In this document: positions 7,739-25,364 of the stretch, in pieces
How the letters are laid out: each line of letters begins with the position of its first letter
Position numbering within the stretch: position 1 is the stretch's first letter
The notes under the pieces: model-generated
Told to the model about the DNA's origin: nothing
The model's input: the letters and a program-made list of their open reading frames with translations, nothing else
Database searches by the model: none
Assembly: GCA_002011125.2 (NCBI GenBank)
Contig: MTMF02000009.1
Span: forward strand, 64,001-128,000
Reading direction: 5' to 3'
Length of the DNA: 64,000 nucleotides
DNA from: Candidatus Hydrothermarchaeum profundi
Lineage (GTDB): Archaea > Hydrothermarchaeota > Hydrothermarchaeia > Hydrothermarchaeales > Hydrothermarchaeaceae
Position numbers and translations under genes: made by a program

Positions 7739-7744
7739 TAATAT
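7739..7744. repeat. Left 6-bp direct repeat TAATAT (target-site duplication / core)
   Basis: Abuts the left TIR; identical to 25359-25364. Confidence 0.75.
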
Positions 7745-7763
7745 CAAAGATTAGGCAGTTGTG
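7745..7763 (+). repeat. Left 19-bp terminal inverted repeat CAAAGATTAGGCAGTTGTG
   Basis: Exact reverse complement of 25340-25358. Confidence 0.9.
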
Positions 7764-7876
7764 TATTCTAATTGCACGACTAAGAAATCGAGTTACTTAG
7801 ATATAAAACCTTTATCTTGGCAAAAACTGTCTCACTTATTTTAATGTTAAATAAAAGATAAAAATTCCTGCTTTCA

Positions 7877-8980
7877 TTATGACAATTTATCAATCAATCT
7901 TCTTGCACGACGTATAAGGTATTCAGCATTTCTTTGAGATTCAGCACCTATATCCAACTTTTGATTAACAATCGATATTAACGCACTAGCTACACTGATT
8001 GCCTCCAGTTTTTGTTCTTGAGAAAAATTCACATTATCTCTAATCATGTCTTCATACCTACCAAGTTCCCCAACTAGAGCATTTTGAGCCGCTATTAACC
8101 TATCTGCGTCAGTTTCAAGAAACCAATGATAAATTAAATCACCCAACGACTCACTTATATTCTCACTTTCTGAAACAGGTATATGGTTAATTAGGAAACC
8201 GACGATAATGCCAATCCCTAATGCAGCTAAGGCTGCAATCCAATTGGCGTAAAGCATTGCAAATACTCCCCCCGCTTCAGTACCACCAGACAATAAAGTC
8301 CAACGTGCAAATATGGGCACAATCCTTTCCATCCATACAATACGAGCGTACCACAAAGACGGAACGCCGAATTTCCACCCATTTTTCAGCCACTCAAACA
8401 ATCTTGTCATAAGTTGCCAGAATCTTTCAAGTTGGCCTGCCTGTAAAGCTGCTTCAATTTCCAAGATCATCTGTTCAACAAATGCTGCATCTGCTGGGTC
8501 ATCCATTACCCTTTGAAGTTCCCTCAGGGCCTCTATTAATTCATTAATTTCTGCAGGACTTGGTTGCCAGCCCGTAGGACTTAGAAAAATTGGTGGAATA
8601 TAATAGAAAGATGATGGCGAGCTGTCAAATAGTAAATTCGAATGAAGGATTTTCCAAGGCATAGATTTTGATTCTTTACCAGGCTTAGGAATGGATTTTA
8701 AAAATTTTGTCATACAGTCGATCATAATTTTAGTTTGATTTTCCAAATTGTCTTCCTTCCAATCGATTTTTTGGGCACGCCGGTTAAATTTAGCTAATTC
8801 TTCAGAGATGTCTTCATTCCTTGATTCATCAGGTATTATCTTTCGAATAGACCTGGAAAGAAGATATCCTTGGCTTATCATACTCAAGACTTGAAATGAA
8901 GATCGTTGAATAATCTCTTCAGGTGTTGGGTTTCTTATTTCCTTCAACGGAAATTTTCTATTAGGTTTTTTTTCAACCAT
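7877..8980 (-). CDS. Hypothetical helical membrane protein (367 aa)
   Basis: Long ORF with SD GGGGGTAA; hydrophobic Gly/Ala segment WIAALAALGIGIIVGFLI. Confidence 0.7.
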   Translation of the reverse strand: MVEKKPNRKFPLKEIRNPTPEEIIQRSSFQVLSMISQGYLLSRSIRKIIPDESRNEDISEELAKFNRRAQKIDWKEDNLENQTKIMIDCMTKFLKSIPKPGKESKSMPWKILHSNLLFDSSPSSFYYIPPIFLSPTGWQPSPAEINELIEALRELQRVMDDPADAAFVEQMILEIEAALQAGQLERFWQLMTRLFEWLKNGWKFGVPSLWYARIVWMERIVPIFARWTLLSGGTEAGGVFAMLYANWIAALAALGIGIIVGFLINHIPVSESENISESLGDLIYHWFLETDADRLIAAQNALVGELGRYEDMIRDNVNFSQEQKLEAISVASALISIVNQKLDIGAESQRNAEYLIRRARRLIDKLS

Positions 8981-9066
8981 TTTTTACCCCCCCTTTCACC
9001 AAGTACCAATTAATTAGATTTCTACTTAAAACTTTCGTCTTTAGAATTTTTTCCAAAAAATAAAAG

Positions 9067-9462
9067 CTATATTAGTGTAGAGTCTTTAGATTTCTCAAGC
9101 ATGCATAACAGATGCCCAAAACACCCGAGGATAAAGTTGCTGGCCAAATGTGTTGCCCTTAAATGCCTAAAAAGAGTGGGGTAAATCCTCTTTCTTATAC
9201 CTGCTCTTTTCGCAAGGGTATGCGCTTTCATTACTTGCAGAAATGTTCTTGATTTGCAGAATAGCAAGACCAACGCTTTTTCCCTTTGTATCTCTGTAAT
9301 TCTTTTTTGAGTTTCCGCATCAATCTGTAATTGCTTTCCCAATTTCTTCGATAAGTTTCTAATTAAATCAAATTCGCTTGAAAGCTTCAATCCCTCATCA
9401 AAAGGAATTATCTCTATATTTTCGTTGATTATTAGCTCTTTATCCAGTTTACAGTATTTCAA
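9067..9462 (-). pseudogene. Tyrosine integrase/recombinase remnant
   Basis: LAKRAGIRKRIYPTLFRHLRATHLAS resembles the H-x-x-R box of archaeal MGE integrases (His replaced by T); rest of enzyme absent. Confidence 0.65.
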
Positions 9463-9502
9463 GATATAAAACAGTCATATTCCTTCATAGGGCCTTACAC
9501 TA

Positions 9503-9676
9503 TTAACCCTTCTTGCTCTTTTTATACTCGCTTACAAAAGCAGCTAACGCTTGGTAACCCACGTCGGACTCGGAGGAGAAGTCCCCGTTTTCTATCATCT
9601 TCCGGATCTCTCTGTACAAGTAGGGTGAGACATAAACTGTGATCCTCTCTTTTCGTTTCAGTTGTTCTTTAGGCAC
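9503..9676 (-). CDS. RHH-like regulator, 57 aa (paralog of 25391-25567); not in ORF track
   Basis: GTG after GGGGTGA; MPKEQLKRKERITVYVSPYLYREIRKMIENGDFSSESDVGYQALAAFVSEYKKSKKG. Confidence 0.8.
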   Translation of the reverse strand: MPKEQLKRKERITVYVSPYLYREIRKMIENGDFSSESDVGYQALAAFVSEYKKSKKG

Positions 9677-9779
9677 TTTATCACCCCTTATTTGTATTCT
9701 ATAGAGAAGATTATAAGGGTTTTGCTATGGCATTTTTGTCTTTTGAAGTAGTCAAAGAGGGAAGGCGCTCCTATTTCTT

Positions 9780-10223
9780 CTACTTTATTTTTTTCTTCAC
9801 TGTTTTACCGTAGGTATCTGTCACAACCAGATAAAGATCATCCTTCCCCACTATCTCTAGTTTTCTTTTCAGAACGAATGTAAGGTGTTTGTTAACTGTT
9901 TTACCAACTGGTAAGTCAAAAATCGGCCTAAACATTCCAATAGGTTCGGAAAAATCATGTACATTTACATTTTCATCAGGCGCAAGACGAATCTTGTATC
10001 TAGGAATATGTAGCTGTACATCTCTAATCGAGGTTGGCTTCTTCGATAAATTCAAAACATCAAAATCGACATTAAAGTAGGTAGCGTCTTCTTCTTCGGT
10101 TACCATAAGCTTGTTGATTATTACATCGAACCTATTCCTTTCATCTAGAATTCTCCAGCATAAGCTTATAGTGCCGGTAATCGCACCAACAACCGCTATA
10201 AAAGTCGTAATACCTTCAGGCAT
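9780..10223 (-). CDS. Membrane-anchored beta-rich hypothetical protein
   Basis: N-terminal TM (ITTFIAVVGAITGTISLCW) followed by an Ig-like V.N.S.KP.SI pattern. Confidence 0.65.
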   Translation of the reverse strand: MPEGITTFIAVVGAITGTISLCWRILDERNRFDVIINKLMVTEEEDATYFNVDFDVLNLSKKPTSIRDVQLHIPRYKIRLAPDENVNVHDFSEPIGMFRPIFDLPVGKTVNKHLTFVLKRKLEIVGKDDLYLVVTDTYGKTVKKKIK

Positions 10224-10837: not shown

Positions 10838-10937
10838 AAAACCTAACCTCCTAGTCTTCTATTATGATTCAATACCTATTAAGGTTTTTTCTGGATTTCA
10901 AAAGCCACATATACCTCAATCCTTTGATACTCTGGGT

Positions 10938-11141: not shown

Positions 11142-11345
11142 GGAGCTTCAGGGTGTTCACAAACGTCCTACAGGCCTCTCTTTCCATCACCTTAATCTAA
11201 TAGCGCTGGTGCATTATCGTTCCCCTTCCCAAAAGTTACTTTCGGAAGTACTGATAATGATAGAAAATTTTAAATATGAGTTACGTATAGTGAGTTATAT
11301 CTACAAGTTATGAATCACAACTTATAGCTTAGATAGTTGATTGAG

Positions 11346-12200
11346 ATGATCTGCATAAAATGCGGTTTAACAAAAAGGGGTGAAGAAGATTTTTTCATTT
11401 GCGAGGATTGTAAAGATTTTTCGAAAATAGTAGATGACATTTATGCTGACATAGATACTAAGATGGAAACGTTGGAAAATATAGACCCCGATACAAACCC
11501 GATATTTCGGTTATTGTCTGATAGTTCATTTGTTACGGCACAAAATCCACAGACAGCGATTTTTTATAAATTATGTGAATTTATAGTCGCACGGGCATTA
11601 AATGGCGTTACCGAAATTACGGAAGATGAGCTTAATAGAGAAATAAGAACGACTAGGGCTTGGAGTGATGCATTTAAAGTTTTTGAAGAGTTAAATCTCG
11701 TTAAAGTAAAAACTGAAAAATATAGGAGAGTCTTAATTTTAACGGATAAAACTAAGAAATTCGCCAACCAATACTTAGACGGTGAACCTCTAAGTGAACA
11801 AATAAGAATTAGATTAGCTCACATATATGCGGGTTATGTTTTGTTATATATACTAAAAAAAATAGCGGAATTAGATAAAGAATATGATATTACAATGTTA
11901 CCTTATAAGCAAAGACCGAGAACATTGTGGACTATATTAATGTTCCTGTGGGCTACCGCATATAACGGGAGAGAGAAATTTACCGAAGAAGATTTAAGAG
12001 CATTCATTTCGAGGAGGAGAATTCCGTCCATAACGAGAGGGAGGATAATTAGGTCGCTTCAAACAATTGATGGAAAGTTCGTGCAAGGATTAATAAAAGA
12101 TATGAGCATCGTAGGTGGAAATATAACTTTTAAATTTGAGGATTATGTTATGGTAGAGATGGAAAGAGTTAGAGAAAGAATTAGAGAAAGGGAGAGATAG
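11346..12200 (+). CDS. N-terminal Zn-finger plus putative winged-helix protein A with (RE)n tail
   Basis: CIKC..CEDC; helix-helix-wing pattern (ITEDELNREI..AFKVFEELNLVKV); ends ERVRERIRERER. Confidence 0.7.
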   Translation: MICIKCGLTKRGEEDFFICEDCKDFSKIVDDIYADIDTKMETLENIDPDTNPIFRLLSDSSFVTAQNPQTAIFYKLCEFIVARALNGVTEITEDELNREIRTTRAWSDAFKVFEELNLVKVKTEKYRRVLILTDKTKKFANQYLDGEPLSEQIRIRLAHIYAGYVLLYILKKIAELDKEYDITMLPYKQRPRTLWTILMFLWATAYNGREKFTEEDLRAFISRRRIPSITRGRIIRSLQTIDGKFVQGLIKDMSIVGGNITFKFEDYVMVEMERVRERIRERER

Positions 12201-12205
12201 TATAA

Positions 12206-12964
12206 ATGGAAATGAAAATCGATGATGAACTAGAAGTTGTCAGTGGAAGGACCTTGCCTGAGGTTGATCTTCTTCCTCAACTTAAAGAAATAGAAGGTAT
12301 AATATCAAGGACTTGCGAATATTTCTTTAAGGGGAATCTCGTGATGAAAAATTCACCGTTTAAAGGTTTTATATTAGAAGGGCCTCCTGGAACTGGTAAA
12401 ACAGAGATAATAAAACAAGTGGCTAGAAAATTAGATAGAAGATTACAAACAGTTTCTTTTTTGTTTGTTGATGGTGCGTCTATAGCAGCACCAAAATGGG
12501 GAGATGCTGAAAAAAAATTAAGAAGCATTTTTAGATGGATAAAGAAACAATCTAAAAATTCAAAATTATTAATTCTGTTTGATGACATTGAAAGTTTGAT
12601 GTTAACTAGGGGGACAGAACTAGCTAAAGAATGGCATTATTCGATTAACTCCATTCTTTTTCACGAAATAGACAAGCTCAATCCATACAAAGTTATTGTA
12701 TGTGCCACCACCAATCGCCCAGATTTAGTTGATGAAGCAATAAGAACAAGATTATACCCAATCCAAGCACCAAATCTACCATTAGATCAACTCATGATCG
12801 CTGTAAATGAAATTTTAGAAGCAAGCAATATGAAAAATGAAGATAAAAAATTCGTCGCTGAGAAAATCAAGGAAAAATTAAAGAAAATGGAAAATCCGAC
12901 AATAAGAGATGCACGACAAATAACTGTGATGGAATGCATTGAAAGGAGGTTGTGGTCGGTATGA
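12206..12964 (+). CDS. Classic-clade AAA+ ATPase (single domain)
   Basis: GPPGTGKT, pore loop PKWG, Walker B LLILFDDIE, SRH ATTNRPDLVDEAIRTRL. Confidence 0.9.
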   Translation: MEMKIDDELEVVSGRTLPEVDLLPQLKEIEGIISRTCEYFFKGNLVMKNSPFKGFILEGPPGTGKTEIIKQVARKLDRRLQTVSFLFVDGASIAAPKWGDAEKKLRSIFRWIKKQSKNSKLLILFDDIESLMLTRGTELAKEWHYSINSILFHEIDKLNPYKVIVCATTNRPDLVDEAIRTRLYPIQAPNLPLDQLMIAVNEILEASNMKNEDKKFVAEKIKEKLKKMENPTIRDARQITVMECIERRLWSV

Positions 12965-13320
12965 TATTATTAGAGGAAGTTCCTAAAACTGGAATACTCA
13001 TTTTAACTGTATATTTTCCGATGGGCAAATACAAAGGATATTTTCAAAATGAGGCCAGAAAAAGATTGAAAGAGAAAATTCCTAGAATTGATGAAAAGGA
13101 AAAATTAGGGTTAGAGTTAGAACCTTTGCAATTCAGTCTTGTGAGAACTATTTCTGGAAATATTAGTAGAGCTGGAGGTGTGCAGTGGCAGTTCGGTTAT
13201 AAAAATATGACGCCCAAAAAATTTAAAATATTATACGAAAATATAAAAAGACTTTCTACTCCTGAGTGGTGGGGTAGTTTCGATGTCCTTATAGCGAGTA
13301 ATGTAGCGGGAGTAGATTAG
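12961..13320 (+). CDS. Hypothetical protein (119 aa) coupled to the AAA ATPase
   Basis: ATGA overlap with AAA stop; SD GGAGG. Confidence 0.75.
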   Translation: MILLEEVPKTGILILTVYFPMGKYKGYFQNEARKRLKEKIPRIDEKEKLGLELEPLQFSLVRTISGNISRAGGVQWQFGYKNMTPKKFKILYENIKRLSTPEWWGSFDVLIASNVAGVD

Positions 13321-13450: not shown

Positions 13451-15394
13451 ATGGAAGCCAATTTATATATTAAAGATATTGGAGGATTAAGAGGAGAGAG
13501 GGTTTTTAAATTAAAAAAAGGAAAGTTAAATTTAATTGAAGCTTCAAATAGTGGCGGAAAAACTTCCGTTATAAAGGCATTAACTGCTGTTTTATCAATA
13601 CCTCCAGATGGTTATCTTGATTTATATACCGATAAAGAAGCTAGGAAACTTGGCATTAAAAGCGAAGAGCGTAATCCACAACAGGGATTTGTTAATATAC
13701 ATGCAAAAGAGGGAACTGTCAGATTAGAAATAAATGATAAAACTGAGACATATCGTGTCAAACAAAGTGGTGAACATATAGAGTTGCCACAAGAAGGGGA
13801 TCAAAGATTCCTCTTAGCTGGAATATTATCTAATGATAGTAGGATATTAAGACAACTAAGGGGATTAGATGAAGAATACGAACCCGAAGATTTTAAATGG
13901 GCAGTTACACAACTTTCATTTGCAAAAAATTACGATGAAATAAGGGACTATCTTCTGACTAAAAAAGAGGACCTATTAGAGAAAGAATATGCTGCAGAGA
14001 GAAAAATCGAACAATTAGCAAGTTTGGACATAGAACGGCAAAAATTGCTGAAGAAAAGAGATAAACTTGATAAAGAATTAAAAGAATTGGGAGCCAAATT
14101 TAAAGGTATTAAAGATCCTATTAGAAAAAGAAAAGACTTAACCGACAACATAAATAAATACGAAGAATTTAAAGGAAAAAAAATTGGAGAAATAAAAAAG
14201 AAAAAAGATGAAATAAAAAACTTAGAAAAGAAACTAAGTGTATTAGATAAAAAAATTAAAGAAAAAAACAAAGAATTAAAAAATATACAAATTGAAGCTT
14301 TAGAAAAAGAAAATAAGATAAAAAAGGAAGAAAATGAGGAAAAAATTACTAAACTTAAAGAAAAACGAAGCGGAATAGATGGTCTTCTAAATTTATTTGT
14401 AACTGCTCAATCTAGTTTAAGAGGAACATCCGAGGAGATTATTTGCCCTTTATGCAACGACGGAACTATAAGTTATAAGGAAGTTGAATCGAGATTAAAG
14501 GATTTGCGGGCTCAAAAGGACAAAATAAGTAGTGAAATTAAAAATCTAAATTTGGAAAATATTCGATTATCTCAGGAATTACAAAAACAAGTGGACTACC
14601 GAGATAAGTTAAAAAGGGAACTTCGTGATCTTGAAGGCGAAAAATATCATCTAAACAAAGCATTGAACGAACGGAAAATGGAATTAGGCCAACTACAATA
14701 CGATATAGAACAGCATAATCAAATGATTTCAAAATGGAAAAAACAGTTAGAGATTCTAAGAAGTAAAATTAGTTCAGAAGATGAGGAACTCGATAAACTA
14801 TACACCAAAAAAGAGAGAGAAAGAGCAGAAGTTTCAGTCCGTATAAGTGATATTAACCGAGAGTTAGAAGAATCTTCTATGGAAGTAGACGGAGATATAG
14901 TTGAACCAAAAATTGCTAAACAGATCTATGAGAAGTGGATTGAATATATCGAAAATAAAATAGAATTTACTAAAAAAAGAGCAGATGAGCAAAGACAAGA
15001 AGCTGCTAAGCAATTTAATGCTAATATAAATGAGCTGATGGCTGAATTAGGATTTAAAGAATTTAGAAATATTAAACTAAACAATAATTACCAATTATAT
15101 GTTGAAAGGCTTAAAGAAAAAACTGGAGAGTATGTTCCACAACAAGTTAAGAGCTTGAGTACATCTGAAAAATTGACAATCGCTATGATATTGCAAATCG
15201 CTTTAAAGGAAACATATCTCCCGAATACTAACTTTTTCATTTTAGATGATATAATCTCAGATTTTGATGAAGATAGAAAAAATATAGTATTAAATTACTT
15301 ATTGAACAAAGCTAAAGAAAAAGATTGGTTTATTGTAGCTACAAATCTGATTGAAGAAGATAAACCTGTAGAAATTCGATATTTTGGAGGGTAG
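13451..15394 (+). CDS. SMC/Rad50-like ABC ATPase with zinc hook (archaea-specific SMC-related, Sph/BPS2/ClsN-like)
   Basis: Walker A ASNSGGKTS, long coiled coils, central CPLC, signature LSTSE, Walker B/D-loop FFILDDIISDFD. Confidence 0.9.
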   Translation: MEANLYIKDIGGLRGERVFKLKKGKLNLIEASNSGGKTSVIKALTAVLSIPPDGYLDLYTDKEARKLGIKSEERNPQQGFVNIHAKEGTVRLEINDKTETYRVKQSGEHIELPQEGDQRFLLAGILSNDSRILRQLRGLDEEYEPEDFKWAVTQLSFAKNYDEIRDYLLTKKEDLLEKEYAAERKIEQLASLDIERQKLLKKRDKLDKELKELGAKFKGIKDPIRKRKDLTDNINKYEEFKGKKIGEIKKKKDEIKNLEKKLSVLDKKIKEKNKELKNIQIEALEKENKIKKEENEEKITKLKEKRSGIDGLLNLFVTAQSSLRGTSEEIICPLCNDGTISYKEVESRLKDLRAQKDKISSEIKNLNLENIRLSQELQKQVDYRDKLKRELRDLEGEKYHLNKALNERKMELGQLQYDIEQHNQMISKWKKQLEILRSKISSEDEELDKLYTKKERERAEVSVRISDINRELEESSMEVDGDIVEPKIAKQIYEKWIEYIENKIEFTKKRADEQRQEAAKQFNANINELMAELGFKEFRNIKLNNNYQLYVERLKEKTGEYVPQQVKSLSTSEKLTIAMILQIALKETYLPNTNFFILDDIISDFDEDRKNIVLNYLLNKAKEKDWFIVATNLIEEDKPVEIRYFGG

Positions 15395-15395
15395 G

Positions 15396-16202
15396 ATGAA
15401 TTGTCGAATTTGTGGCATTGAATTAGAAGATTTAACTTCAAAACTATGTAAAAAATGTGATTTAACATTATTTCAAATTTTAGATATCATAGAGATATAT
15501 GTAAAAGAAAAAAATCCTCCAGAGTGGCTAACTAATGCCGTGCAAGAGTTAGCATGGATATATCAGGCATATCCAAGGACTGCCGGATATTTTAACACAG
15601 CAGTTGAAATCCTCGAAATTTTTACTATTTTTGGGGCAAGTGAAATACCATTGAAAGAAATAAAAGAAGTCAATTATACTTCTCTCCCGACTAATAAAGT
15701 ACTCTCATTTCTAGAAGAAGCTCTATTGATCGAAAGAGATAATGAAGTAATACGGCCTGGAAAACTTACTAAAAAACTTCAAGAAATTAGGTGGGAAGGT
15801 TATAAAATGGATTCACCTGAAATGGAAAAAAAAATTTTAGAGATTCATGGAATTCTTACTGTTGCATTGACAAAATCATTGATTCAAACCGGATTTTATA
15901 TACCAAGAGGAGCATTAGCTATTTTTGATATGTTATCACATCATATCCTTACCAGCGGTAAAAAGATTGATCCGATACTTTCAAATTATTCTATAGATTT
16001 AGCAACAATAAAATTACCTATTAGGCAAAGACTTCGTTTGATACGCACTATGTCGGGATTTGTAAATGGTAAAACAAAAATTATTTCGGATAATACTGAA
16101 AAAGGAGAAAAACCACTCAAGCCGGTTATAATTAAGTATCTAGAAAAAGAATTTGAGAGATATAGAGAACGTGAAAGAGAACGTGAAAGAGAATTGCTTT
16201 AA
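15396..16202 (+). CDS. N-terminal Zn-finger plus putative winged-helix protein B with (RE)n tail
   Basis: CRIC..CKKC; IPLKEIKEV..VLSFLEEALLIER..IRPG; ends ERYRERERERELL; same layout as 11346-12200. Confidence 0.7.
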   Translation: MNCRICGIELEDLTSKLCKKCDLTLFQILDIIEIYVKEKNPPEWLTNAVQELAWIYQAYPRTAGYFNTAVEILEIFTIFGASEIPLKEIKEVNYTSLPTNKVLSFLEEALLIERDNEVIRPGKLTKKLQEIRWEGYKMDSPEMEKKILEIHGILTVALTKSLIQTGFYIPRGALAIFDMLSHHILTSGKKIDPILSNYSIDLATIKLPIRQRLRLIRTMSGFVNGKTKIISDNTEKGEKPLKPVIIKYLEKEFERYRERERERERELL

Positions 16203-18088: not shown

Positions 18089-18392
18089 AAAAATTCCTAC
18101 GATCCAGGTAATAACCAAGAAAATTAATGTCAAGAAATTCATTGAGGACGAGTTCTATTATGACCGTAAGGAGAAGGAGATCAGAAGAGAGGTTAAGAGA
18201 AACGCTGACATCGTGATCGTCAATTTAAAGCCCGACCAGAAGATCAAGGACCTATGGGTGCTGGAGATGTTGTTGCATCTCCAACGTGAGTTCTCCGACA
18301 TAGTGATTATACCAGACTCGGATATGCCTATTGAGGAGCTCGAGGACTGGTTTGGGATATTCAGACCAAAGGAGGTATTGAAAGCCTGTTAG
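18081..18392 (+). CDS. Hypothetical protein (possible TGT-barrel fragment)
   Basis: Overlaps the RHH stop; LEMLLHLQREFSDIVIIPD resembles LEKLLKAQVESNAQVLEIPN of the neighbouring gene. Confidence 0.55.
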   Translation: MNKKIPTIQVITKKINVKKFIEDEFYYDRKEKEIRREVKRNADIVIVNLKPDQKIKDLWVLEMLLHLQREFSDIVIIPDSDMPIEELEDWFGIFRPKEVLKAC

Positions 18393-19480
18393 ACCAGTTT
18401 TGAGAAAAACTCGTAAGCATAATATTTACTTTCTATGTATTGAAGGGCGGATTCTCTGGGATCATTTATCAGCTCTCTAAGTTTTTGGGATTCTCTATTA
18501 TACGCTACAGCCTCATGTGCTCTTGTGAAGTAAGGTTCTTGGCTATAATTCTCTATGATGTCTATCATTGTATACCTTCCGCAAAAAGGACATTCACAGT
18601 AATCAGACAAATACAAATCCCTGCCCTCATTCAATTCTGCCATAAACCCCCATGGATAGGTCCCGTAATCCGTTGGATTATAGTAGCGATGCCGTTCCAT
18701 AGCGGTCTTTTTACTTGGAGCACCTCTGCCGAGTTTCACGGGAAAGCTGATCGTATCGATTCCAAACCTATTAATACCGATGCCAGGGGTTCCATCTCTC
18801 TCAATAAGCTTATAACTTCTTGGAGTTGAAAACGAGTGAACCCAGACCTTCTTTTTTTTGTTTTTCCTTAGCAGATCTCTAACACCGTAAAGGAGTCTTT
18901 TTATTACTCTCTGCTCTCTCAGATTAACGCCTACACAGTCAATCCAGTTCATCTTCTTGTTAATCAAGTCAAAATCACTTTTTTTACATGCAACGGCCAT
19001 TATCGGCCTTCCGCCTCCATATCTCTTAAAATACTTAATACCACTAATAAGGGCTTGTGAATAATTCTGGTTGTTGAAAAAATTGGGGATTTCTAGGACT
19101 TGAGCATTTGATTCAACTTGAGCTTTCAACAATTTTTCCAAAGTCATTTGATTTAGACTAGTAATGCTTCTGGGGAACTCGAAATGGATAATTCTAGTAT
19201 TTACAGACTCATCTAGTATTTTATTGTTTAGAGCTTCCTTGAAATACTCAAACTTACTATCATCCCTAAGTTGTACAGTCAGATCCTTAGTAATCCAATT
19301 AACCTGCACACCTAAGTTCCTTAAAGGACTAAACGCTGTTCTTGTAATAGGATAAAATTTTTTGATAGAAGTTATATCAGTCTGAGTCAAGAAGTTTGTA
19401 GGAGTTTTGATTTCAAAGCCGCCTATATTTAAGATACCGCTACGGCCGCCTTGTTCGGCCGCAACCACATCGAACAACAT
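18389..19480 (-). CDS. tRNA-guanine transglycosylase-like protein, catalytic motifs degenerate
   Basis: TGT N-terminus F.V...GRSG.L....IKTP; VHSFS; GIDT; Zn site CECPFC..H; no DSGG motif. Confidence 0.7.
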   Translation of the reverse strand: MLFDVVAAEQGGRSGILNIGGFEIKTPTNFLTQTDITSIKKFYPITRTAFSPLRNLGVQVNWITKDLTVQLRDDSKFEYFKEALNNKILDESVNTRIIHFEFPRSITSLNQMTLEKLLKAQVESNAQVLEIPNFFNNQNYSQALISGIKYFKRYGGGRPIMAVACKKSDFDLINKKMNWIDCVGVNLREQRVIKRLLYGVRDLLRKNKKKKVWVHSFSTPRSYKLIERDGTPGIGINRFGIDTISFPVKLGRGAPSKKTAMERHRYYNPTDYGTYPWGFMAELNEGRDLYLSDYCECPFCGRYTMIDIIENYSQEPYFTRAHEAVAYNRESQKLRELINDPRESALQYIESKYYAYEFFSKLV

Positions 19481-19828: not shown

Positions 19829-21217
19829 ATGGAGCCCGAATCCATGAAAGAAACAAGCCCCACAGAGAGAGATATAAGATTTAACGGTGAAAAAGATTTC
19901 TCTAAAGAGCCTGGGAAAAGTTATACCGCTAGTTACAACTTTAAGACCTTCACCTCAAAGATTAGAATTGAGGAGAACAAGAAATCCAGATCTAAACACA
20001 CCGAATATGCTGGCCTTCTTGCTGTAGCAGGGGCTTGGGAAGCTCTAGAGTTAGATCAGCATATACGAGAAGCGGGGATAGTTAAGAAGAGAGGGCATCC
20101 TGCTGAGAGCTTAACTTTTGCCTCTGTAGTAAGACCTTTGATAGAGGCCAAGTCCACGTTGGCGATGAGCGAGAAGCTAAAGAATGACGATTTCCTGACC
20201 AAGTTACGCTTCGGGTCCCCACCTGATCAGCGGACTCATAACAGGTTCATCCAATCCTTAAATCTAGATCAGATAAATTCATTGAATAATTTAGTTGTCC
20301 GAGAATTGCAGAACTTCAAGAAATGGAGGGCCAAGAAAGATGGGTTTTTACTTGTTGATCTCACTGCTATTCACGTTCATGGAAAAAATTATGAGAACGT
20401 AAAGAAGCTCTATGATGCATCATTAGAGAAAGTGGTTACCGGCTATGAACCAATGGTTTTATCATATACGGATGGACATAAATTCTATCCAGTGGCCTTT
20501 CTTACTCAGGAGAAAAAGACAGACTCATTGCCCTCACTCATAAAGAAGTCTTGGAACTTTTTAGGCACTAAGGTAAACAAAATTGTATTTGATGGCGGAT
20601 TCTATAGCATTCCTTTGTTTAACGAGCTGGATGATATGGGCATAATCTTTGTCACCAAGCCTAGGAAAAACTCCCAAGTCTTTTACGGAATCCATATGCT
20701 GACCTTTGAGAAGCTTTCAACCGAGTGGATAAAGAAAGTCAAGTATTCCCGAAAATATGGGTGGCGTTATGCAGAATGGAAGGCATATTTGCCGAGATTT
20801 GGTGAAATCAAAATTGTAAAGCTACTAGATAAAAATCAAGAAGTATTGCTCATTACTAATGACGAAGATATGCCAGCAGAGGAGGTTATAAAGGCCTACA
20901 AGATGCGCTGGCAAACAGAGACAATGTTCAGAGAGTGCAAGCAGAATCTCGGGCTAAACAACCTGCCTACTGGCAAGTTCTCGGGGATTATAGCTCATAT
21001 CTTCTTTGTCTTACTAGGCTACATACTAATATCCCTTTTTAAGAGGGTTGAGAAAGACTTTAACGGTAGAAGCATCTCCACAATTATAAGAATGCTTATC
21101 AGGGTGACCGCAGATATTATAAGGAGTGGAAGGGAGATCGTGGTCTCGATAGTGTGTGGGTTCAAATATTACTATCTCCTCTTCACAGAAAGATTGCGTA
21201 GTCTATTAGAAAAATAA
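19829..21217 (+). CDS. DDE transposase (IS4 superfamily, IS701/ISH3/IS1634-like)
   Basis: LLVDLT, IVFDGGFYS, Y..RWQTETMFRECKQ.LGL (YREK-type motif). Confidence 0.9.
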   Translation: MEPESMKETSPTERDIRFNGEKDFSKEPGKSYTASYNFKTFTSKIRIEENKKSRSKHTEYAGLLAVAGAWEALELDQHIREAGIVKKRGHPAESLTFASVVRPLIEAKSTLAMSEKLKNDDFLTKLRFGSPPDQRTHNRFIQSLNLDQINSLNNLVVRELQNFKKWRAKKDGFLLVDLTAIHVHGKNYENVKKLYDASLEKVVTGYEPMVLSYTDGHKFYPVAFLTQEKKTDSLPSLIKKSWNFLGTKVNKIVFDGGFYSIPLFNELDDMGIIFVTKPRKNSQVFYGIHMLTFEKLSTEWIKKVKYSRKYGWRYAEWKAYLPRFGEIKIVKLLDKNQEVLLITNDEDMPAEEVIKAYKMRWQTETMFRECKQNLGLNNLPTGKFSGIIAHIFFVLLGYILISLFKRVEKDFNGRSISTIIRMLIRVTADIIRSGREIVVSIVCGFKYYYLLFTERLRSLLEK

Positions 21218-21232: not shown

Positions 21233-22588
21233 ATGGTAAAACTAACGTTTCACGGCGGTGTTGGAGAAATTGGTGGGAATAAGATCCTACTCGAAGACGA
21301 AAACACCAGCATCCTATTAGACTTTGGGAAAAACTTTGAGAAGGAGAGAAGATACTACGACGAGCCCTACATAAAACCGAGAGAAGAGAAACATCTCATA
21401 TATCTCGGCCTGCTTCCAAAGATAGAGGGACTATACAAGAAAGATGAGAGAGAACCCTCCATCGACGCTATATTATTTACCCATCCACATGCAGATCACG
21501 TAGACTATGTGAGATATGTAAAAGACTCCATCCCTCTATACTGCGGTGAAACTGCAAAGACAATGATCCTAGCCAAGGAGATGTCAGCTTCAGGGCATCT
21601 AAAAGAATATAAGATTGCAAGGATGACCAGAGACTCCGTGGATGTGCCTAAGACCTTCAAGACGTTCAGAACCGGTGATAAAAAGAGGCTGGGCTCTATT
21701 GAAATCGAGCCGATACACGTCGATCACTCTACTCCGGGGGCCTACGCATATATACTCCACACATCGGGTGGGACAATAGTATATACTGGCGATTTTCGCC
21801 TGCACGGTCCGAGGGCGGAGATGAGCAGGGAGTTCGTCGAAAAAGCCAAGGAGGCATCTCCCGAGGCGCTTATCATCGAGGGGACGAACATAGTTGACGC
21901 AAAGACGGCCACTGAGAAAGAAGTAAAGGAGAAGATAAGTCGCATAGTCTCGGATGCCCCCCGGCTCGTATTAGCTGGATTCAGCCTAAACGACATTGAT
22001 AGGCTAAAGACGTTCTACGAAGTTGCAAAGAAGAACGGGAGAAAGCTGGCCATGTCGATGAAACAGGCCTACATCGTATATAGGTTGAGAGAAGAGAGCT
22101 TCCCCATATTCAGGTTAAACGATCCAAATATACTCATCTTTCAGAGGGAAAAAAGAACAACCTATAAGTGGGAGAAAGAGGTCATCGACAATTTCAGCGA
22201 TAATGTTGCTACAGGTAGAGATATAAACGCCATGCAGGGGGAAGTGCTCCTCGCAGCGTCCTTCTATGACATGAACGAGATGGTTGAGATCCTGCCTGAA
22301 AGTGGGAGCATATACATCCTCTCGCAGAGTGAGCCCTTTAACGAGGAGATGGAGATAAACCATGAGAAGATGCTAAACTGGCTGGAGAGATGCGGGCTAC
22401 CCCTATACCAAGTCCATGCCTCAGGACATGCAGACCCGCATCAGCTTAAATGGGCGATCTCCGAGATAGGTGCGAAAAAAGTCTTCACCATACACACAGA
22501 AAGACCAAGGCTAATGGCAAGATACATGTCTGACCTAGATACAGAAATAATCTCCCCGACAGAAGGCGAAATGTATGCTGTCGAATAG
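21233..22588 (+). CDS. Metallo-beta-lactamase / RNase J-like nuclease
   Basis: GGVGEIGGNKI, THPHADH, VDHS, YTGDFR, HASGH, HTE. Confidence 0.88.
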   Translation: MVKLTFHGGVGEIGGNKILLEDENTSILLDFGKNFEKERRYYDEPYIKPREEKHLIYLGLLPKIEGLYKKDEREPSIDAILFTHPHADHVDYVRYVKDSIPLYCGETAKTMILAKEMSASGHLKEYKIARMTRDSVDVPKTFKTFRTGDKKRLGSIEIEPIHVDHSTPGAYAYILHTSGGTIVYTGDFRLHGPRAEMSREFVEKAKEASPEALIIEGTNIVDAKTATEKEVKEKISRIVSDAPRLVLAGFSLNDIDRLKTFYEVAKKNGRKLAMSMKQAYIVYRLREESFPIFRLNDPNILIFQREKRTTYKWEKEVIDNFSDNVATGRDINAMQGEVLLAASFYDMNEMVEILPESGSIYILSQSEPFNEEMEINHEKMLNWLERCGLPLYQVHASGHADPHQLKWAISEIGAKKVFTIHTERPRLMARYMSDLDTEIISPTEGEMYAVE

Positions 22589-23018: not shown

Positions 23019-23208
23019 AAAAGCTCTTCAATGGGAAAGGAGATCCCTCACATAATGGAATTGCCCCAAAAATTCTTCTACTACTTAGGAAATCCTAACC
23101 CAAAAACTAAGAGCTATTTACTTTTACTTCTAACCTACATAGAATTACTCGCCACTACTTTCCCTCTATAATTTGATCTTCGTCCTCTCCCGTCGTATTC
23201 TAACACAG

Positions 23209-23412
23209 CTAAGCCTTTCGAATATTCAAGCTTGAATCATAGGCATAAAAGCCAGGGATTGAAAATCCACTATTTTGGACGAGTATTTTTGCTTGAGATA
23301 TAGAATATTCTGGCACCACTAGATAAAAACGATTCTTCCTTTGGCCAGGATTTATCACCACATGACAATCAGGGTTATTAGACTTTAGCCAAGATTTTAC
23401 TTTTCTAACCAT
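23209..23412 (-). CDS. Small hypothetical protein or fragment
   Basis: ORF only. Confidence 0.3.
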   Translation of the reverse strand: MVRKVKSWLKSNNPDCHVVINPGQRKNRFYLVVPEYSISQAKILVQNSGFSIPGFYAYDSSLNIRKA

Positions 23413-23559
23413 TCTATCATGCAGTTCTTAGTTTCGAGGGCTTCTCTTAACCGCCATATTCACTACCTCTCTAAACTATTAGATCTCTGAAAAGTTAAGT
23501 ATCTTTCAAAATCCGGAGAAAAATATTAATTTATAGAAATTGTTCTTTATCAAGCCCAA

Positions 23560-23904
23560 TCATTTCCATAGTTTTTCCCATCGTTGATCTGAGCGTATTT
23601 CGTCCAAGGTATCTGCTAAACTACTCAAGTGTTCTCCAACGGTCTTAAGATTATCAGTGGCCTCATCTACGTGCCCTACAACATCCTCTAAATTTTGTGT
23701 AGCATCTCTGATATACTCTCCAACTTCTTCTAAGTTCTCAGTAGCATTTTGTAATACATTCACCACCCGCTCTAGTAATTTCAAGGCTTTACCAATCTGT
23801 CTCCCTGTCTGCCAAGTAAGATAAGCATATACCAGAGTAGCGATTGCCAATACACCTGTAAATCCAGCCAACACCCATGTTGCTAATTCCAGTTCTCCGT
23901 CCAT
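23560..23904 (-). CDS. Membrane-anchored coiled-coil protein with three 14-aa repeats
   Basis: TM WVLAGFTGVLAIATLVYAYLTW; ATENLEEVGEYIRD/ATQNLEDVVGHVDE/ATDNLKTVGEHLSS. Confidence 0.7.
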   Translation of the reverse strand: MDGELELATWVLAGFTGVLAIATLVYAYLTWQTGRQIGKALKLLERVVNVLQNATENLEEVGEYIRDATQNLEDVVGHVDEATDNLKTVGEHLSSLADTLDEIRSDQRWEKLWK

Positions 23905-24177
23905 GACAGTAAATATTAATATCCATTATAAAAAATATCCATCATAGTTAGGATGTAAAACAACCATATAAATCTCTCTATTTCTCGATTTTTCAATGTT
24001 TACATTTATAAATTAGATATAAAATCTAAGCAAACATACGTAGGTAGCAAAACAAGCTTGTTAGGAACTTCAGGGGCAACTCTTATATACGTCTAAAGCT
24101 AAATTTTAGGCGTGAAACCATTAAATTAGGTTGTGAAAAAGCCAATTCAATAAAAATCAAAGTTTTGAGTAAATGAT

Positions 24178-24660
24178 ATGGCCAAAATTAATGATGCTCC
24201 TCCAGAGATATTCAAAGCGGATAATTTATTACAAAAAATCTTAAAAGAAGCAGAGCCTGCAAAAGACATGTTATTGGAGAGGCTTCGCACTTTACCACGC
24301 TACGAATCACACTTAGATGCTCCTTCTTTACCGGGTGTCTATGTGATATGGGATGGAAAGAGGGTGGTTTATGCTGGTAGCTCAGGACACGGGGAAAAGA
24401 CTGGTCTTAGGCAAAGGCTCTATAGGGTATTAAAACGCACGGGGCTGAGTCCTTTGAGGAAAGGCATAGCTAGAGACATAGGCCATCCAGAATATCAACC
24501 TAAGTCGAGAGGCCCAAGAAATCCAGAAATCGAGGAGAAAATAGACGATAGAGTTAGCTCATTGGTGTTTTCTTATATTGAAGCTAGTGATAGTAAATCT
24601 GCAAGGAATTTGGAACGCCTCATTATATCGCTTCTGGATCCAAAGTATAATAAGGGATAG
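24178..24660 (+). CDS. GIY-YIG family nuclease
   Basis: PGVYVI..VVYAGSS..LRQRL..LE..I....PKYN. Confidence 0.85.
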   Translation: MAKINDAPPEIFKADNLLQKILKEAEPAKDMLLERLRTLPRYESHLDAPSLPGVYVIWDGKRVVYAGSSGHGEKTGLRQRLYRVLKRTGLSPLRKGIARDIGHPEYQPKSRGPRNPEIEEKIDDRVSSLVFSYIEASDSKSARNLERLIISLLDPKYNKG

Positions 24661-24755
24661 AAATTCCTTAAGATCTAGTTGACGGTTCCATTAAATTTCG
24701 AAAGGAACCATAAAGACGAAGAGGTGATTAAAAGATTTAAAAGGGGCGAAGGGAG

Positions 24756-25295
24756 ATGCCAAAGGAGTCAGAATGGCATAGAGAAGTTCGAGGGAAAATC
24801 GAGCGACATTTAAAGAACAAAAATATTAAATTCAAATCCTCGCATTCCGGGGTCAAAGTCCCCTTATTTATAGACTTTAGTGACACTTCTAGGAGTAACC
24901 AATTGTCAGATGCAGATTTCATAATAATAAAAAACAAAACAATAAAATTCATCATTGAAATTGAGAAAGGGGCACCGACCCCAAAAAAGCTTATGGGTAT
25001 TATAACGGCGGCCAATCTCTCAACCGCTTATAAAAGACAGGAAGAAAAATTCAAGATTCAAAATGCAAAATTGTTCATAGTAACGGGAGATAAGGAGACG
25101 AATAAAATGAATAAACCTAAAAGCAAGAAGCTAGAGCAGTACCACAATATCAAGAAACATCTTAAATTGACCAAGGGTTCTCTGGTAGGGTTTGACATAC
25201 TTACACTTATGGGCAAAAAAGATTTAGAGAAAATATATAGCGAAATAGACAGCATTATAAAAGTACCTCTGAGAAAAGAAGACAAAATGCCCTAA
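24756..25295 (+). CDS. PD-(D/E)xK-fold nuclease-like protein
   Basis: SEWH..SDADFII..IIEIEK pattern. Confidence 0.55.
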   Translation: MPKESEWHREVRGKIERHLKNKNIKFKSSHSGVKVPLFIDFSDTSRSNQLSDADFIIIKNKTIKFIIEIEKGAPTPKKLMGIITAANLSTAYKRQEEKFKIQNAKLFIVTGDKETNKMNKPKSKKLEQYHNIKKHLKLTKGSLVGFDILTLMGKKDLEKIYSEIDSIIKVPLRKEDKMP

Positions 25296-25339
25296 AAAGA
25301 TTACAAAAGATTAGAGAAGTTGTTTGTGACAAATTTTTG

Positions 25340-25358
25340 CACAACTGCCTAATCTTTG
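25340..25358 (-). repeat. Right 19-bp terminal inverted repeat CACAACTGCCTAATCTTTG
   Basis: Exact reverse complement of 7745-7763. Confidence 0.9.
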
Positions 25359-25364
25359 TAATAT
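25359..25364. repeat. Right 6-bp direct repeat TAATAT
   Basis: Abuts the right TIR; identical to 7739-7744. Confidence 0.75.

What the first reader, a model, noticed from the sequence alone, without database searches (positions are those of the whole stretch)
7739..25364. 17.6-kb element with perfect 19-bp TIRs and a 6-bp flanking direct repeat
Seen: TAATAT|CAAAGATTAGGCAGTTGTG (7739-7763) and CACAACTGCCTAATCTTTG|TAATAT (25340-25364) bracket almost all accessory genes between leuS and alaS. Excision would give a 19-6-19 palindromic junction and restore an 83-bp divergent intergenic region between two RHH genes, where the insertion point overlaps a TATA-like TAATATATATA. Imperfect inverted partial copies lie just inside each end (about 7772-7781 and 25304-25323). 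Inference: either a large DDE cargo transposon with a 6-bp TSD or a tyrosine-recombinase element with a 6-bp core. No Cas1 or PolB is present, so it is not a casposon.
Basis: partly seen in the sequence, partly recalled or inferred. Interest (0 to 1): 0.85.

Follow-up and report, generated by a model that had tools for sequence, protein, structure and literature searches.

The report
Archaeal 17.6-kb cargo transposon candidate
A 17.6-kb block of foreign genes, probably a DNA-modification or defence set, sits between two housekeeping genes of an archaeon and has the end structure of a cut-and-paste transposon, a kind of gene-carrying element hardly described in archaea.

Summary
A perfect 19-bp inverted repeat (7745-7763 / 25340-25358) is flanked by a direct TAATAT and occurs only twice in the 2.19-Mb genome. 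Of 92 perfect inverted-repeat pairs of 16 bp or more in that genome, this is the only one with a flanking direct repeat longer than 3 bp.

In 5 relatives alaS and leuS lie side by side, so the DNA between them is an insertion. A 97%-identical strain in another metagenome has a contig whose match stops exactly at 7744, the outer edge of the repeat.

Two metagenome contigs from other organisms carry the same 19-mer followed by N8-TTGCAC. Similarity starts at the first base of the 19-mer and the flanking hexamers differ.

The only recombinase found is an intact IS4-superfamily DDE transposase (DDE and YREK residues present). It has no inverted repeats of its own and is single-copy. Six-bp AT-rich duplications and C-----YT ends fit the IS1634-type pattern.

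Best reading: a non-composite cargo ("unit") transposon carrying an SMC-like / PAPS-reductase / TGT-like module. Not shown: an empty site, a second copy, or a link between this transposase and these ends. Interest is moderate to high; it is a new variant of a known kind.

The parts
4631..7495 (-). leuS (flank, not part of the element)
   Evidence: Pfam tRNA-synt_1, Anticodon_1 and the LeuRS editing domain
7538..7687 (-). 49-aa RHH-like gene on the left flank. It predates the insertion.
   Evidence: Translation. A paralogue with 73% aa identity lies at C9:1663636-1663767. The related strain in run X3 covers this gene (record 19). No Pfam hit.
7739..7744 (.). Left copy of the 6-bp target-site duplication TAATAT
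7745..7763 (+). Left terminal inverted repeat (19 bp)
   Evidence: invariant in 4 of 4 aligned ends
7757..7781 (+). Subterminal stem-loop at the left end: the repeat's 3' part, a 7-nt loop, then TGCACGACT. The TTGCAC box is at 7772-7777.
   Evidence: Fold with a 9-bp stem. The CAC of the box and a T three bases before it are invariant in alignment A2; the exact TTGCAC occurs in 3 of the 4 ends.
7877..8980 (-). 367-aa protein of unknown function, hydrophobic in its middle part (read by eye)
   Evidence: No hit in Pfam, NCBIfam, PADLOC, PHROGs or PDB. The Atlas gives nothing above 0.79.
9067..9462 (-). 131-aa ORF of unknown function. A tyrosine-recombinase fragment was suspected by eye but not supported.
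9503..9676 (-). 57-aa RHH-like paralogue of the chromosomal gene at 25391-25567
   Evidence: 77% nt identity over 136 nt; 84% aa identity over 44 aa
9780..10837 (-). Two ORFs of unknown function (147 and 148 aa)
11337..12200 (+). 287-aa protein with an N-terminal Cys-rich motif; function unknown
12206..12964 (+). AAA ATPase (IetA/TRIP13-like)
   Evidence: Pfam AAA 4.9e-23; PADLOC IetA 8e-15
12952..13320 (+). 122-aa ORF of unknown function
13451..15394 (+). SMC-related ATPase (ASRP-like, LmuB-like)
   Evidence: NCBIfam NF045487 275 bits, below the cut-off of 300. PADLOC LmuB 2.9e-14. Not found in 37 other genomes of the phylum.
15384..16202 (+). 272-aa protein with an N-terminal Cys-rich motif; function unknown
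   Evidence: no significant similarity to the 287-aa protein
16271..17557 (+). PAPS-reductase (PP-loop) domain with a 4Fe-4S dicluster; BrxP/SspD/DndC-like
   Evidence: Pfam PAPS_reduct 1.3e-39; PADLOC BrxP 1.1e-53
18389..19480 (-). 363-aa TGT-like TIM-barrel protein (possibly a DNA/RNA transglycosylase)
   Evidence: Atlas structure search: TM 0.72 to archaeal tRNA-guanine(15) transglycosylase. No Pfam or PDB sequence hit.
19829..21217 (+). 462-aa DDE transposase of the IS4 superfamily. Candidate enzyme of the element.
   Evidence: Pfam DDE_Tnp_1 9.4e-16 and DDE_Tnp_1_4 7.2e-14. D172, D250, E359 and Y352-R355-E359-K366 are invariant in alignment A1. Single copy. No inverted repeats of its own.
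21233..22588 (+). RNase J-like beta-CASP metallo-hydrolase; a second, divergent copy
   Evidence: Pfam Lactamase_B_2 and RMMBL. NCBIfam RNase J family 4.3e-27. 38% identical to C9:1298182-1299459. It starts 16 bp after the transposase stop.
23560..23904 (-). 114-aa protein with sub-threshold coiled-coil-type Pfam matches
24178..24660 (+). 160-aa protein with a GIY-YIG-like motif (read by eye, not tested)
   Evidence: Sequence; no Pfam, PADLOC or PHROGs hit
24756..25295 (+). 179-aa protein with a possible PD-(D/E)xK motif (read by eye, not tested)
   Evidence: Sequence; no significant family hit
25304..25328 (+). Imperfect inward-facing copy of the terminal repeat. With 25340-25358 it forms a hairpin or palindrome. 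AAGATTA occurs 3 times in 25297-25356.
25340..25358 (-). Right terminal inverted repeat (19 bp)
25359..25364 (.). Right copy of TAATAT. It is part of the TATA-like run TAATATATATA of the 58-aa gene's promoter.
   Evidence: The same AT run followed by TTTTGGTAAG stands before the orthologue in relative G006.
25391..25567 (+). 58-aa RHH-like gene on the right flank; ancestral neighbour of alaS
   Evidence: Orthologue between alaS and leuS in G006 and upstream of leuS in G014; Pfam RHH_1 E = 0.099
25560..28598 (-). alaS (flank, not part of the element)
   Evidence: Pfam tRNA-synt_2c 8.8e-80

Best explanation
Window 7745-25358 (17,614 bp) is a single non-composite cargo transposon. It inserted by DDE cut-and-paste transposition into the AT-rich TATA-box region between two divergent small RHH-like genes, inside an otherwise conserved alaS-leuS neighbourhood.

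Proposed steps:
1. The element's own 462-aa IS4-superfamily transposase binds the 19-bp terminal repeats. It may also use the subterminal TTGCAC box and the inward partial repeats.
2. It cuts the ends.
3. It joins them to staggered target cuts 6 bp apart.
4. Repair of the stagger produces the TAATAT duplication.

The passengers are a probable DNA-modification or defence module (SMC-like ATPase, AAA ATPase, PP-loop/4Fe-4S PAPS-reductase-like enzyme, TGT-like protein), an RNase J-like paralogue and small nuclease-like genes.

Shown: the repeat-plus-duplication anatomy, the insertion relative to other genomes, a sharp left breakpoint in a related strain, the same terminus in other organisms, and intact catalytic residues in the transposase.

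Inferred: that this transposase acts on these ends, and that the element has moved as one piece.
For: 1. Anatomy. The ends are a 19/19 inverted repeat plus a 6/6 direct repeat. This is the only one of 92 genomic inverted-repeat pairs with a flanking repeat longer than 3 bp.

2. Insertion. alaS and leuS are adjacent in G001 (same family), G008, G016 and G010, and separated only by the 58-aa gene in G006. The transposase and the SMC-like gene were each found in 0 of 37 other genomes of the phylum at E <= 1e-10. The element's GC is 36.0% against 39.1% for the genome, falling to 29-33% at 13-18 kb.

3. Left boundary. Contig record 19 of run X3 (255 nt) fits 7520-7744 with 6 differences. It stops exactly at 7744, although 30 more letters of the record remain unlaid.

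4. Right boundary. The TATA-like run plus TTTTGGTAAG before the 58-aa gene is shared with G006. So the sequence from 25359 rightwards is ancestral.

5. Family. Of 6 metagenome contigs with the exact 19-mer (4 distinct sequences), 2 (L025, L028) also have TTGCAC after 8 variable bases, as at the window's left end. By my estimate a fixed 6-mer there has a chance of 2.4e-4 per contig. In the 4-end alignment all 19 repeat columns are invariant, and outside the repeat only 1 of 16 columns is. The neighbouring gene on L025 is only 67% nt / 69% aa identical to its counterpart in this genome, so the terminus is far better conserved than the host DNA.

6. Variable flanks. The hexamers next to the terminus are TAATAT, ATACAT and GTAAAT. 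Variable, AT-rich flanks are expected of target duplications, not of a fixed core.

7. Enzyme. The only recombinase detected among the 28 scanned ORFs is a DDE transposase with the complete D-D-E and Y-(2)-R-(3)-E-(6)-K residues. It has no inverted repeats of its own, and the next gene starts 16 bp after its stop. It is single-copy in the genome.

8. Family pattern. Table 1 of PMC2266710 (passages read) gives IS1634 elements 5-6 bp AT-rich duplications and ends of the form C-----YT. CAAAGATT fits that, and the repeat also starts with the 5'-CA of IS4-family ends.
Against: - No empty site, circular junction or second full copy was seen. The 30 unlaid letters of the X3 contig are unknown; they may be the right flank or a different insertion.
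- The transposase is an orphan. Besides itself, only 3 proteins in 5.8 billion match at E <= 1e-10, at 28-30% identity. So no close relative was found in the metagenomes that hold the same 19-mer, although identical ends would predict a similar enzyme.
- It scores below every curated NCBIfam cut-off: IS4_4 121.7 against 250, IS1380 90.6 against 180, IS1634 81.2 against 100.
- In PMC2266710, transposases with a full YREK motif go with 7-13 bp duplications, and 5-6 bp duplications go with an incomplete YREK. This element mixes the two.
- It is about ten times longer than the elements of those families.
- L025 and L028 show only one end each and share no genes with this element.
- The element's GC is uneven (29-45% per kb), so it could be a mosaic built in several steps.
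- A 19-bp perfect inverted repeat alone is not rare in this genome (8 pairs of 19 bp or more).
Confidence: 0.55

Rival explanations
1. The block is a true transposon with inverted-repeat ends, but a different enzyme moves or moved it: an unrecognised protein of the element, or a transposase supplied in trans or since lost. The 462-aa DDE gene would be a passenger or a domesticated gene, co-transcribed with the RNase J-like gene.
For: No close homologue of the 462-aa transposase exists in 5.8 billion proteins, although the identical 19-mer occurs in two other metagenomes. The transposase lies 5.5 kb from the nearest end and is followed after 16 bp by another gene. About half of the element's proteins have no family assignment. 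The 3.4 kb inside the L028 end holds a truncated rve/IS240-type fragment and no IS4-type gene.
Against: No other recombinase-like domain was found in any of the scanned ORFs of the element. The DDE gene is intact and lacks ends of its own. The duplication length and end pattern fit its superfamily. No other copy of the 19-mer, and so no autonomous partner, exists in this genome.
Confidence: 0.2
2. The block is an integrative element moved by a tyrosine (or other site-specific) recombinase. Its circular form carries a 19-6-19 palindromic attachment site, TAATAT is the crossover core shared with the chromosome, and the recombinase gene has decayed or been lost.
For: Joining the two ends would give perfect 19-bp arms around a 6-bp spacer, the layout of recombinase core sites (the comparison itself is recalled). 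The element carries an RHH-like gene (9503-9676), and the neighbouring 131-aa ORF has, by eye, a box-II-like H-x-x-R stretch.
Against: No Phage_integrase or other recombinase family hit for any ORF. The 131-aa ORF has no Pfam hit even at E <= 10, no PDB relative, and only a low-confidence fold (pLDDT 52.8). The chromosomal sequences beside TAATAT do not resemble the 19-bp arms. At L025 and L028 the hexamer beside the identical arm is ATACAT or GTAAAT, not TAATAT. A fixed core should be constant.
Confidence: 0.12
3. The block is not one mobile unit. The 19-mer with its hairpin would be a conserved cis-element, such as a protein-binding site, terminator-like hairpin or short palindromic repeat. 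By chance it stands at both edges of a defence island that grew by successive insertions at an alaS-leuS hot spot. The TAATAT match would come from TATA-box-like sequence on both sides.
For: Each end can form a stem-loop just after the last inside gene. The three ends with the exact TTGCAC box keep a GTGYR-N7-TGCAC stem through changes that only G-U pairs tolerate. L025 has two more TTGCAC copies outside the 19-mer. The island's GC is heterogeneous. Perfect 19-bp inverted repeats are not rare here. AT-only hexamers are common in intergenic DNA.
Against: The 6-bp direct repeat is unique among the 92 control pairs, and its chance is about 1e-3. The related strain's contig breaks exactly at the outer edge of the 19-mer. 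Conservation in four ends begins exactly at base 1 of the 19-mer. One arm is invariant while the partner arm is degenerate, which is odd for a structure under selection. There is no Rfam match at E <= 1. In L025 the neighbouring gene points towards the 19-mer, and no RHH-like gene lies beside the 19-mer in L025 or L028, so it is not an RHH operator.
Confidence: 0.1

Closest known systems
IS1634 family and the IS4 family proper (DDE_Tnp_1 superfamily; De Palmenaer et al. 2008, PMC2266710, passages and Table 1 read)
   Same: DDE transposase with N2/N3/C1 residues. Short terminal inverted repeats that start with C (IS1634: C-----YT; IS4 groups: CA). AT-rich 5-6 bp duplications, as stated for IS1634. 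The paper says IS1634 and ISH8 are frequent in Euryarchaeota.
   Different: 17.6 kb with about 20 passenger genes, against 1.2-5.4 kb. A full YREK motif (IS4-like) combined with a 6-bp duplication (IS1634-like). Below all curated NCBIfam cut-offs. Nearest relatives are only 28-30% identical.
Bacterial unit (non-composite) cargo transposons, for example Tn3-family and Tn7-like elements with defence cargo (PMC8649781 and PMC7157771: search listing and start of abstract only)
   Same: One transposase module, terminal inverted repeats, a short target duplication, and many passenger genes including defence-type genes.
   Different: No TnsB/TnsC, Tn3-type transposase or resolvase here. The host is archaeal. 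The discussion of PMC6563490 (passage read) says passenger-carrying DNA transposons had not been detected in archaea.
Casposons (PMC4046053 and PMC4150552: listing and start of abstract only)
   Same: The only well-described large archaeal transposons with inverted-repeat ends, target duplications and multiple genes.
   Different: No Cas1 and no PolB. A DDE transposase is present instead.
Archaeal integrative elements using tyrosine recombinases (PMC8371274: listing only; PMC6563490: passages)
   Same: Multigene islands of similar size (median 16.8 kb in PMC6563490) flanked by short direct repeats.
   Different: Those have direct attachment-site repeats, mostly in tRNA genes, and an integrase gene. 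This one has inverted ends, an intergenic TATA-box target and no integrase.

Membership tests
IS4 family proper (PMC2266710) | DDE catalytic triad in N2, N3 and C1 regions | tested here: met
   D172, D250 and E359 are invariant in alignment A1 with 3 distant homologues; Pfam DDE_Tnp_1 9.4e-16
IS4 family proper (PMC2266710) | Complete Y-(2)-R-(3)-E-(6)-K motif | tested here: met
   Y352, R355, E359 and K366 are invariant in A1
IS4 family proper (PMC2266710) | Target duplication of 7-13 bp | tested here: not met
   6 bp
IS4 family proper (PMC2266710) | Curated NCBIfam score for an IS4 model | tested here: not met
   NF049925 121.7 bits against 250; NF033592 78.4 against 115
IS1634 family (PMC2266710) | 5-6 bp AT-rich target duplication | tested here: met
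   TAATAT
IS1634 family (PMC2266710) | Ends of the form C-----YT | tested here: met
   CAAAGATT: C at position 1 and TT at positions 7-8 (Table 1 read). The consensus is loose, so this is a weak test.
IS1634 family (PMC2266710) | Incomplete YREK motif (arginine usually missing) and curated NCBIfam score | tested here: not met
   YREK is complete; NF033559 81.2 bits against 100
Unit (non-composite) cargo transposon | Terminal inverted repeats plus target duplication around one transposase gene and passenger genes | tested here: met
Unit (non-composite) cargo transposon | Evidence of movement as a unit: an empty site, or a second copy with another duplication | tested here: inconclusive
   A related strain's contig breaks at 7744, but what follows is unseen. 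The same terminus is found in 2 other contigs, one end each.
Unit (non-composite) cargo transposon | The transposase recognises these ends | not testable with these tools
   The distant homologues' loci were cut or circularly permuted and gave no end information
Composite transposon | Two flanking IS copies | tested here: not met
   The transposase gene is single-copy, and only 19 bp are repeated at the ends
Casposon | Cas1 integrase, usually with PolB | tested here: not met
   No Cas_Cas1 or DNA_pol_B hit in the 28 scanned ORFs
Tyrosine-recombinase integrative element | Integrase gene | tested here: not met
   No Phage_integrase hit. For the suspect 131-aa ORF there was no Pfam hit at E <= 10, no PDB match and only a low-confidence model.
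Tyrosine-recombinase integrative element | Constant core sequence next to the recombinase-binding arm | tested here: not met
   The hexamers TAATAT, ATACAT and GTAAAT stand beside the identical 19-mer. Only 3 loci, so this is a weak test.

The most novel reading that the evidence does not exclude
This is the first recognised member of a family of archaeal cargo-carrying DDE transposons. An unclassified IS4-superfamily transposase (full YREK motif but 6-bp duplications) would move 17.6 kb that includes a complete, so far undescribed DNA-modification or defence module (SMC-like ATPase, AAA ATPase, PP-loop/4Fe-4S enzyme, TGT-like protein). The family would move between archaeal lineages of subsurface and vent habitats and target TATA-box-like sequences.
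Probability: 0.4. Interest if true: 0.72.

Novelty: new variant of a known kind. Interest (0 to 1): 0.6.

Why it matters
Large transposons that carry passenger genes are a main route of gene spread in bacteria. For archaea a 2019 survey stated that such elements had not been detected (PMC6563490, passage read), and my three topical paper searches and one search for the repeat sequence listed no later description.

An element with clean ends, an intact transposase and a full cargo would show that archaea also move defence-type modules by DDE transposition. It would also give a transposase/end pair small enough to test in vitro.

The cargo is of interest in itself. It links an SMC-related ATPase, described so far as a chromosome protein family, with a BrxP/DndC-like PP-loop enzyme and a TGT-like protein.

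Tried and rejected
- **Operator of the RHH genes.** Rejected. The paralogues of both small genes have no 19-mer. No RHH-like gene lies beside the 19-mer in L025 or L028, and in L025 the neighbouring gene points towards it.

- **Known RNA.** No Rfam match at E <= 1 in 4 loci.

- **Tyrosine-recombinase fragment in the 131-aa ORF.** Suspected by eye only. No Pfam hit at E <= 10, no PDB relative and a low-confidence model with pLDDT 52.8. No fold search was run on that model.

- **The transposase as a compact IS with its own ends.** No convincing inverted repeat lies around 19400-21400.

- **Ends of homologous transposases.** Only 3 distant loci were found. One is cut by the contig end, one is circularly permuted and one is a fragment, so they gave no end information.

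- **More copies of the terminus.**
  - 0 of 37 other genomes of the phylum, with up to 2 mismatches.
  - 0 exact matches in genome contigs and viral contigs.
  - 0 for a relaxed pattern in viral contigs.
  - 0 of 329 genomes of another archaeal phylum, with up to 3 mismatches.
  - A 4-mismatch match in L006 lies inside a thioredoxin-reductase-like gene and is taken as chance.
  - L024/L027 and L026/L029 have the 19-mer but not the TTGCAC box. I take them as chance hits, because a few are expected in a collection of that size (my estimate).

- **Empty site for L025.** The intergenic DNA cannot be aligned with this genome, and there is no remnant of the neighbouring hisH-like gene.

- **Read laying, contigs only.**
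  - No joint across the element and no circular junction was listed in X1 or X2. Contigs drop rare variants, so this says nothing.
  - X3 and X4 gave little or no cover of the element's interior. That is a part without cover and is not used as evidence.
  - The X3 contig runs exactly 30 letters past 7744. That equals k-1 of a 31-mer assembly (the k value is recalled) and may mean the next sequence is repeated in that sample. I could not read those letters.

- **Bacterial promoter/terminator scan.** Uninformative for an archaeon.

- **PHROGs.** One weak hit of unknown function among 10 proteins, so there is no viral signature.

- **Tools and files not available.** Supplementary files of PMC2266710 (alignments of IS1634 and IS4 ends) were not seen and could sharpen or weaken the end comparison.

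Full report
**The observation**

The window reads TAATAT|CAAAGATTAGGCAGTTGTG at 7739-7763 and CACAACTGCCTAATCTTTG|TAATAT at 25340-25364. The 19-mer has exactly two matches in the window even with 3 mismatches allowed. Shuffles give a mean of 0.02 matches. The 2.19-Mb genome holds exactly these two copies (up to 4 mismatches).

As a control I listed every perfect inverted-repeat pair of 16 bp or more, spaced 0.2-40 kb, in the genome. There are 92, of which 8 are 19 bp or longer, so the inverted repeat alone is not remarkable. The flanking direct repeat is what stands out. The 92 pairs have flanking repeats of 0 bp (56), 1 (24), 2 (10), 3 (1) and 6 (1, this pair). From the local base composition, a chance 6-base match has a probability of about 1e-3.

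- The restored intergenic region would be 83 bp.
- The right end has an inward-facing imperfect copy of the repeat that folds with it (z = -5.5 or -4.0). The one at the left end is weak.
- No Cas1 or PolB was found among the 28 scanned ORFs.

**It is an insertion**

The host is an archaeon of a small phylum: 38 species genomes are held, and it is the only one of its genus. I examined loci of 13 relatives.
- In 5, alaS lies directly upstream of leuS. These are G001 (same family, about 45 bp apart), G008, G016 and G010, plus G006, where only the orthologue of the 58-aa gene lies between them.
- In G014, that orthologue and a thioredoxin-reductase-like gene lie upstream of leuS.
- In 6 (G004, G005, G013, G021, G034, G036), no alaS lies within the fetched 1.2-1.5 kb.
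- One (G015) is cut by a contig end.

So everything between leuS and the 58-aa gene is extra in this genome.

The transposase and the SMC-like gene were each found in 0 of the 37 other genomes of the phylum at E <= 1e-10. The RNase J-like and PAPS-reductase genes are second, divergent copies, 38% and 32% identical to copies elsewhere in the genome. The element's GC is 36.0% against 39.1% for the genome, and it is uneven: 29-33% at 13-18 kb and 40-45% at 20-23 kb.

**The boundaries**

Left side. Run X3, a vent metagenome from a study other than the probable source runs X1 and X2, holds a related strain that is 91-97% identical on the flanks. Its 255-nt contig (record 19) fits 7520-7744 with 6 differences. 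The fit stops exactly at 7744, the last base of TAATAT, although 30 letters of the record remain. If that strain had the same end, the 19 identical bases would have been laid. So a strain that has the 49-aa gene and its upstream region lacks this end at this point. I could not read the 30 letters, so an exact empty site is not shown.

Right side. The AT run TAATATATATA followed by TTTTGGTAAG before the 58-aa gene matches the promoter region of the G006 orthologue (GATATATATAA-TTTTTGGTAAG). The sequence from 25359 rightwards is therefore ancestral, and the insertion sits at the upstream edge of a TATA-like box.

**The terminus occurs elsewhere**

The exact 19-mer was absent from 185,579 species genomes and from the viral contigs. 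It was found on 6 metagenome contigs, which are 4 distinct sequences. By my estimate a few chance hits are expected in a collection of that size.

Two of the contigs, L025 and L028, also carry TTGCAC after 8 variable bases, exactly as at the window's left end. The right end has TTGTCAC there. In the alignment of the four ends, all 19 repeat columns are invariant, as are the CAC of the box and a T three bases before it. Of the 16 columns outside the repeat only one is invariant. Conservation thus starts at base 1 of the repeat, as at a transposon terminus.

The gene next to the L025 end is only 67% nt / 69% aa identical to its counterpart in this genome. The terminus is therefore much better conserved than the hosts. 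The 3.4 kb inside the L028 end shares no gene with this element.

The hexamers beside the terminus differ: TAATAT, ATACAT and GTAAAT.

**The enzyme**

Family searches of the element's ORFs found one recombinase: a 462-aa DDE transposase at 19829-21217, with Pfam DDE_Tnp_1 and DDE_Tnp_1_4. In an alignment with its only detectable relatives (3 proteins, 28-30% identical), D172, D250 and E359 and the motif Y352-R355-E359-K366 are invariant.

It has no inverted repeats of its own, the next gene starts 16 bp after its stop, and it is single-copy.

It scores below all curated NCBIfam cut-offs, with IS4_4, IS1380 and IS1634 as the best models.

Table 1 and the text of PMC2266710 (passages read) tie a full YREK motif to 7-13 bp duplications and 5'-CA ends. 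They tie IS1634 to an incomplete YREK, 5-6 bp AT-rich duplications and C-----YT ends. This element combines a full YREK and a CA start with a 6-bp AT-rich duplication and a C-----TT end. It belongs to the superfamily but fits none of its defined families.

**Mechanism and odds**

I read the block as a non-composite cargo transposon moved by its own DDE transposase (0.55). The anatomy, the insertion, the left breakpoint, the conserved terminus and the intact catalytic residues are shown. That this enzyme acts on these ends, and that the block moved as one unit, are inferred.

The main weakness is that the transposase is an orphan while the ends are identical in three organisms. A different or trans-acting transposase therefore gets 0.2.

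A tyrosine-recombinase element with a 19-6-19 site gets 0.12. No recombinase was found, the chromosomal arms are unlike the element's arms, and the "core" varies between loci.

A non-mobile cis-element at both edges of an island that grew stepwise gets 0.1. The unique 6-bp repeat, the exact X3 breakpoint and the sharp onset of conservation argue against it.

One feature stays unexplained. The three ends with the exact TTGCAC box keep a GTGYR-N7-TGCAC stem through U-G and G-U compatible changes. With so few sequences this is only a hint.

**Comparison and novelty**

The nearest known kinds are IS1634/IS4-type insertion sequences (same enzyme superfamily and end logic, one tenth the size, no cargo) and bacterial unit transposons with cargo (same architecture, other transposases, bacterial hosts). 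Casposons share only the inverted-repeat-plus-duplication layout and the archaeal host.

PMC6563490 (passage read) states that passenger-carrying DNA transposons had not been detected in archaea. My paper searches listed no later description, and none for the repeat sequence itself.

I rate it a new variant of a known kind, with interest 0.6.

**Limits**

Contigs, not reads, were laid. Supplementary files of the IS4 paper were not seen.

Noticed in passing
window 11337-19480: The cargo looks like one functional module. It holds two Cys-rich proteins of unknown function, an AAA ATPase (IetA/TRIP13-like), an SMC-related ATPase (ASRP-like, LmuB-like), a PP-loop PAPS-reductase/4Fe-4S protein (best PADLOC hit BrxP at 1e-53, also SspD and DndC), and a TGT-like TIM-barrel protein on the other strand. 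This may be an undescribed DNA-modification or defence system. The ASRP paper has no passage on gene neighbours (0 hits for my terms).
   Followed up: partly
window 9503-9676 and 25391-25567: The element carries its own copy of the small RHH-like gene that also sits next to its insertion site (84% aa and 77% nt identity). In G036 the orthologue lies away from alaS and leuS. It is unclear whether this reflects targeting, a hot spot, or chance.
   Followed up: partly
window 4631-28598; loci L004, L005, L017, L018, L019: alaS directly followed by leuS is a conserved arrangement in several families of the order. The short spacer has taken up different inserts: the 58-aa gene in G006, that gene plus a thioredoxin-reductase-like gene in G014, and 18 kb here. 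This looks like an insertion hot spot.
   Followed up: partly
window 19829-22588: The transposase gene is followed after 16 bp, with a GGAGG-like site, by an RNase J-like beta-CASP gene that is only 38% identical to the genome's other RNase J-like gene. They look like one transcription unit.
   Followed up: no
window 12474-13884 and 18085-18196 (run X4): Run X4 has short contigs 84-90% identical to cargo genes (AAA, SMC-like, the 103-aa ORF), while its contigs on the leuS flank are 95-97% identical. A diverged copy of the cargo may exist in that community, in the same organism or another one.
   Followed up: no
window 7757-7781; L025 99-123 (- strand); L028 371-395: A small stem, GTGYR-N7-TGCAC, overlaps the inner end of the 19-mer. 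The three sequences keep it through U-G and G-U compatible changes. It could be a DNA palindrome for a dimeric protein or an RNA or single-strand hairpin.
   Followed up: partly
L032 (whole contig, 1554 nt): The contig carrying a distant homologue of the transposase starts and ends with nearly the same sequence of about 50 nt, differing at one base. It was probably assembled as a circle or tandem, which is typical of a multi-copy insertion sequence or an excised circle.
   Followed up: no
window 19520-19675 (- strand): A small ORF with two CxxC pairs (zinc-ribbon-like, read by eye) lies between the TGT-like gene and the transposase promoter region. It was not analysed.
   Followed up: no
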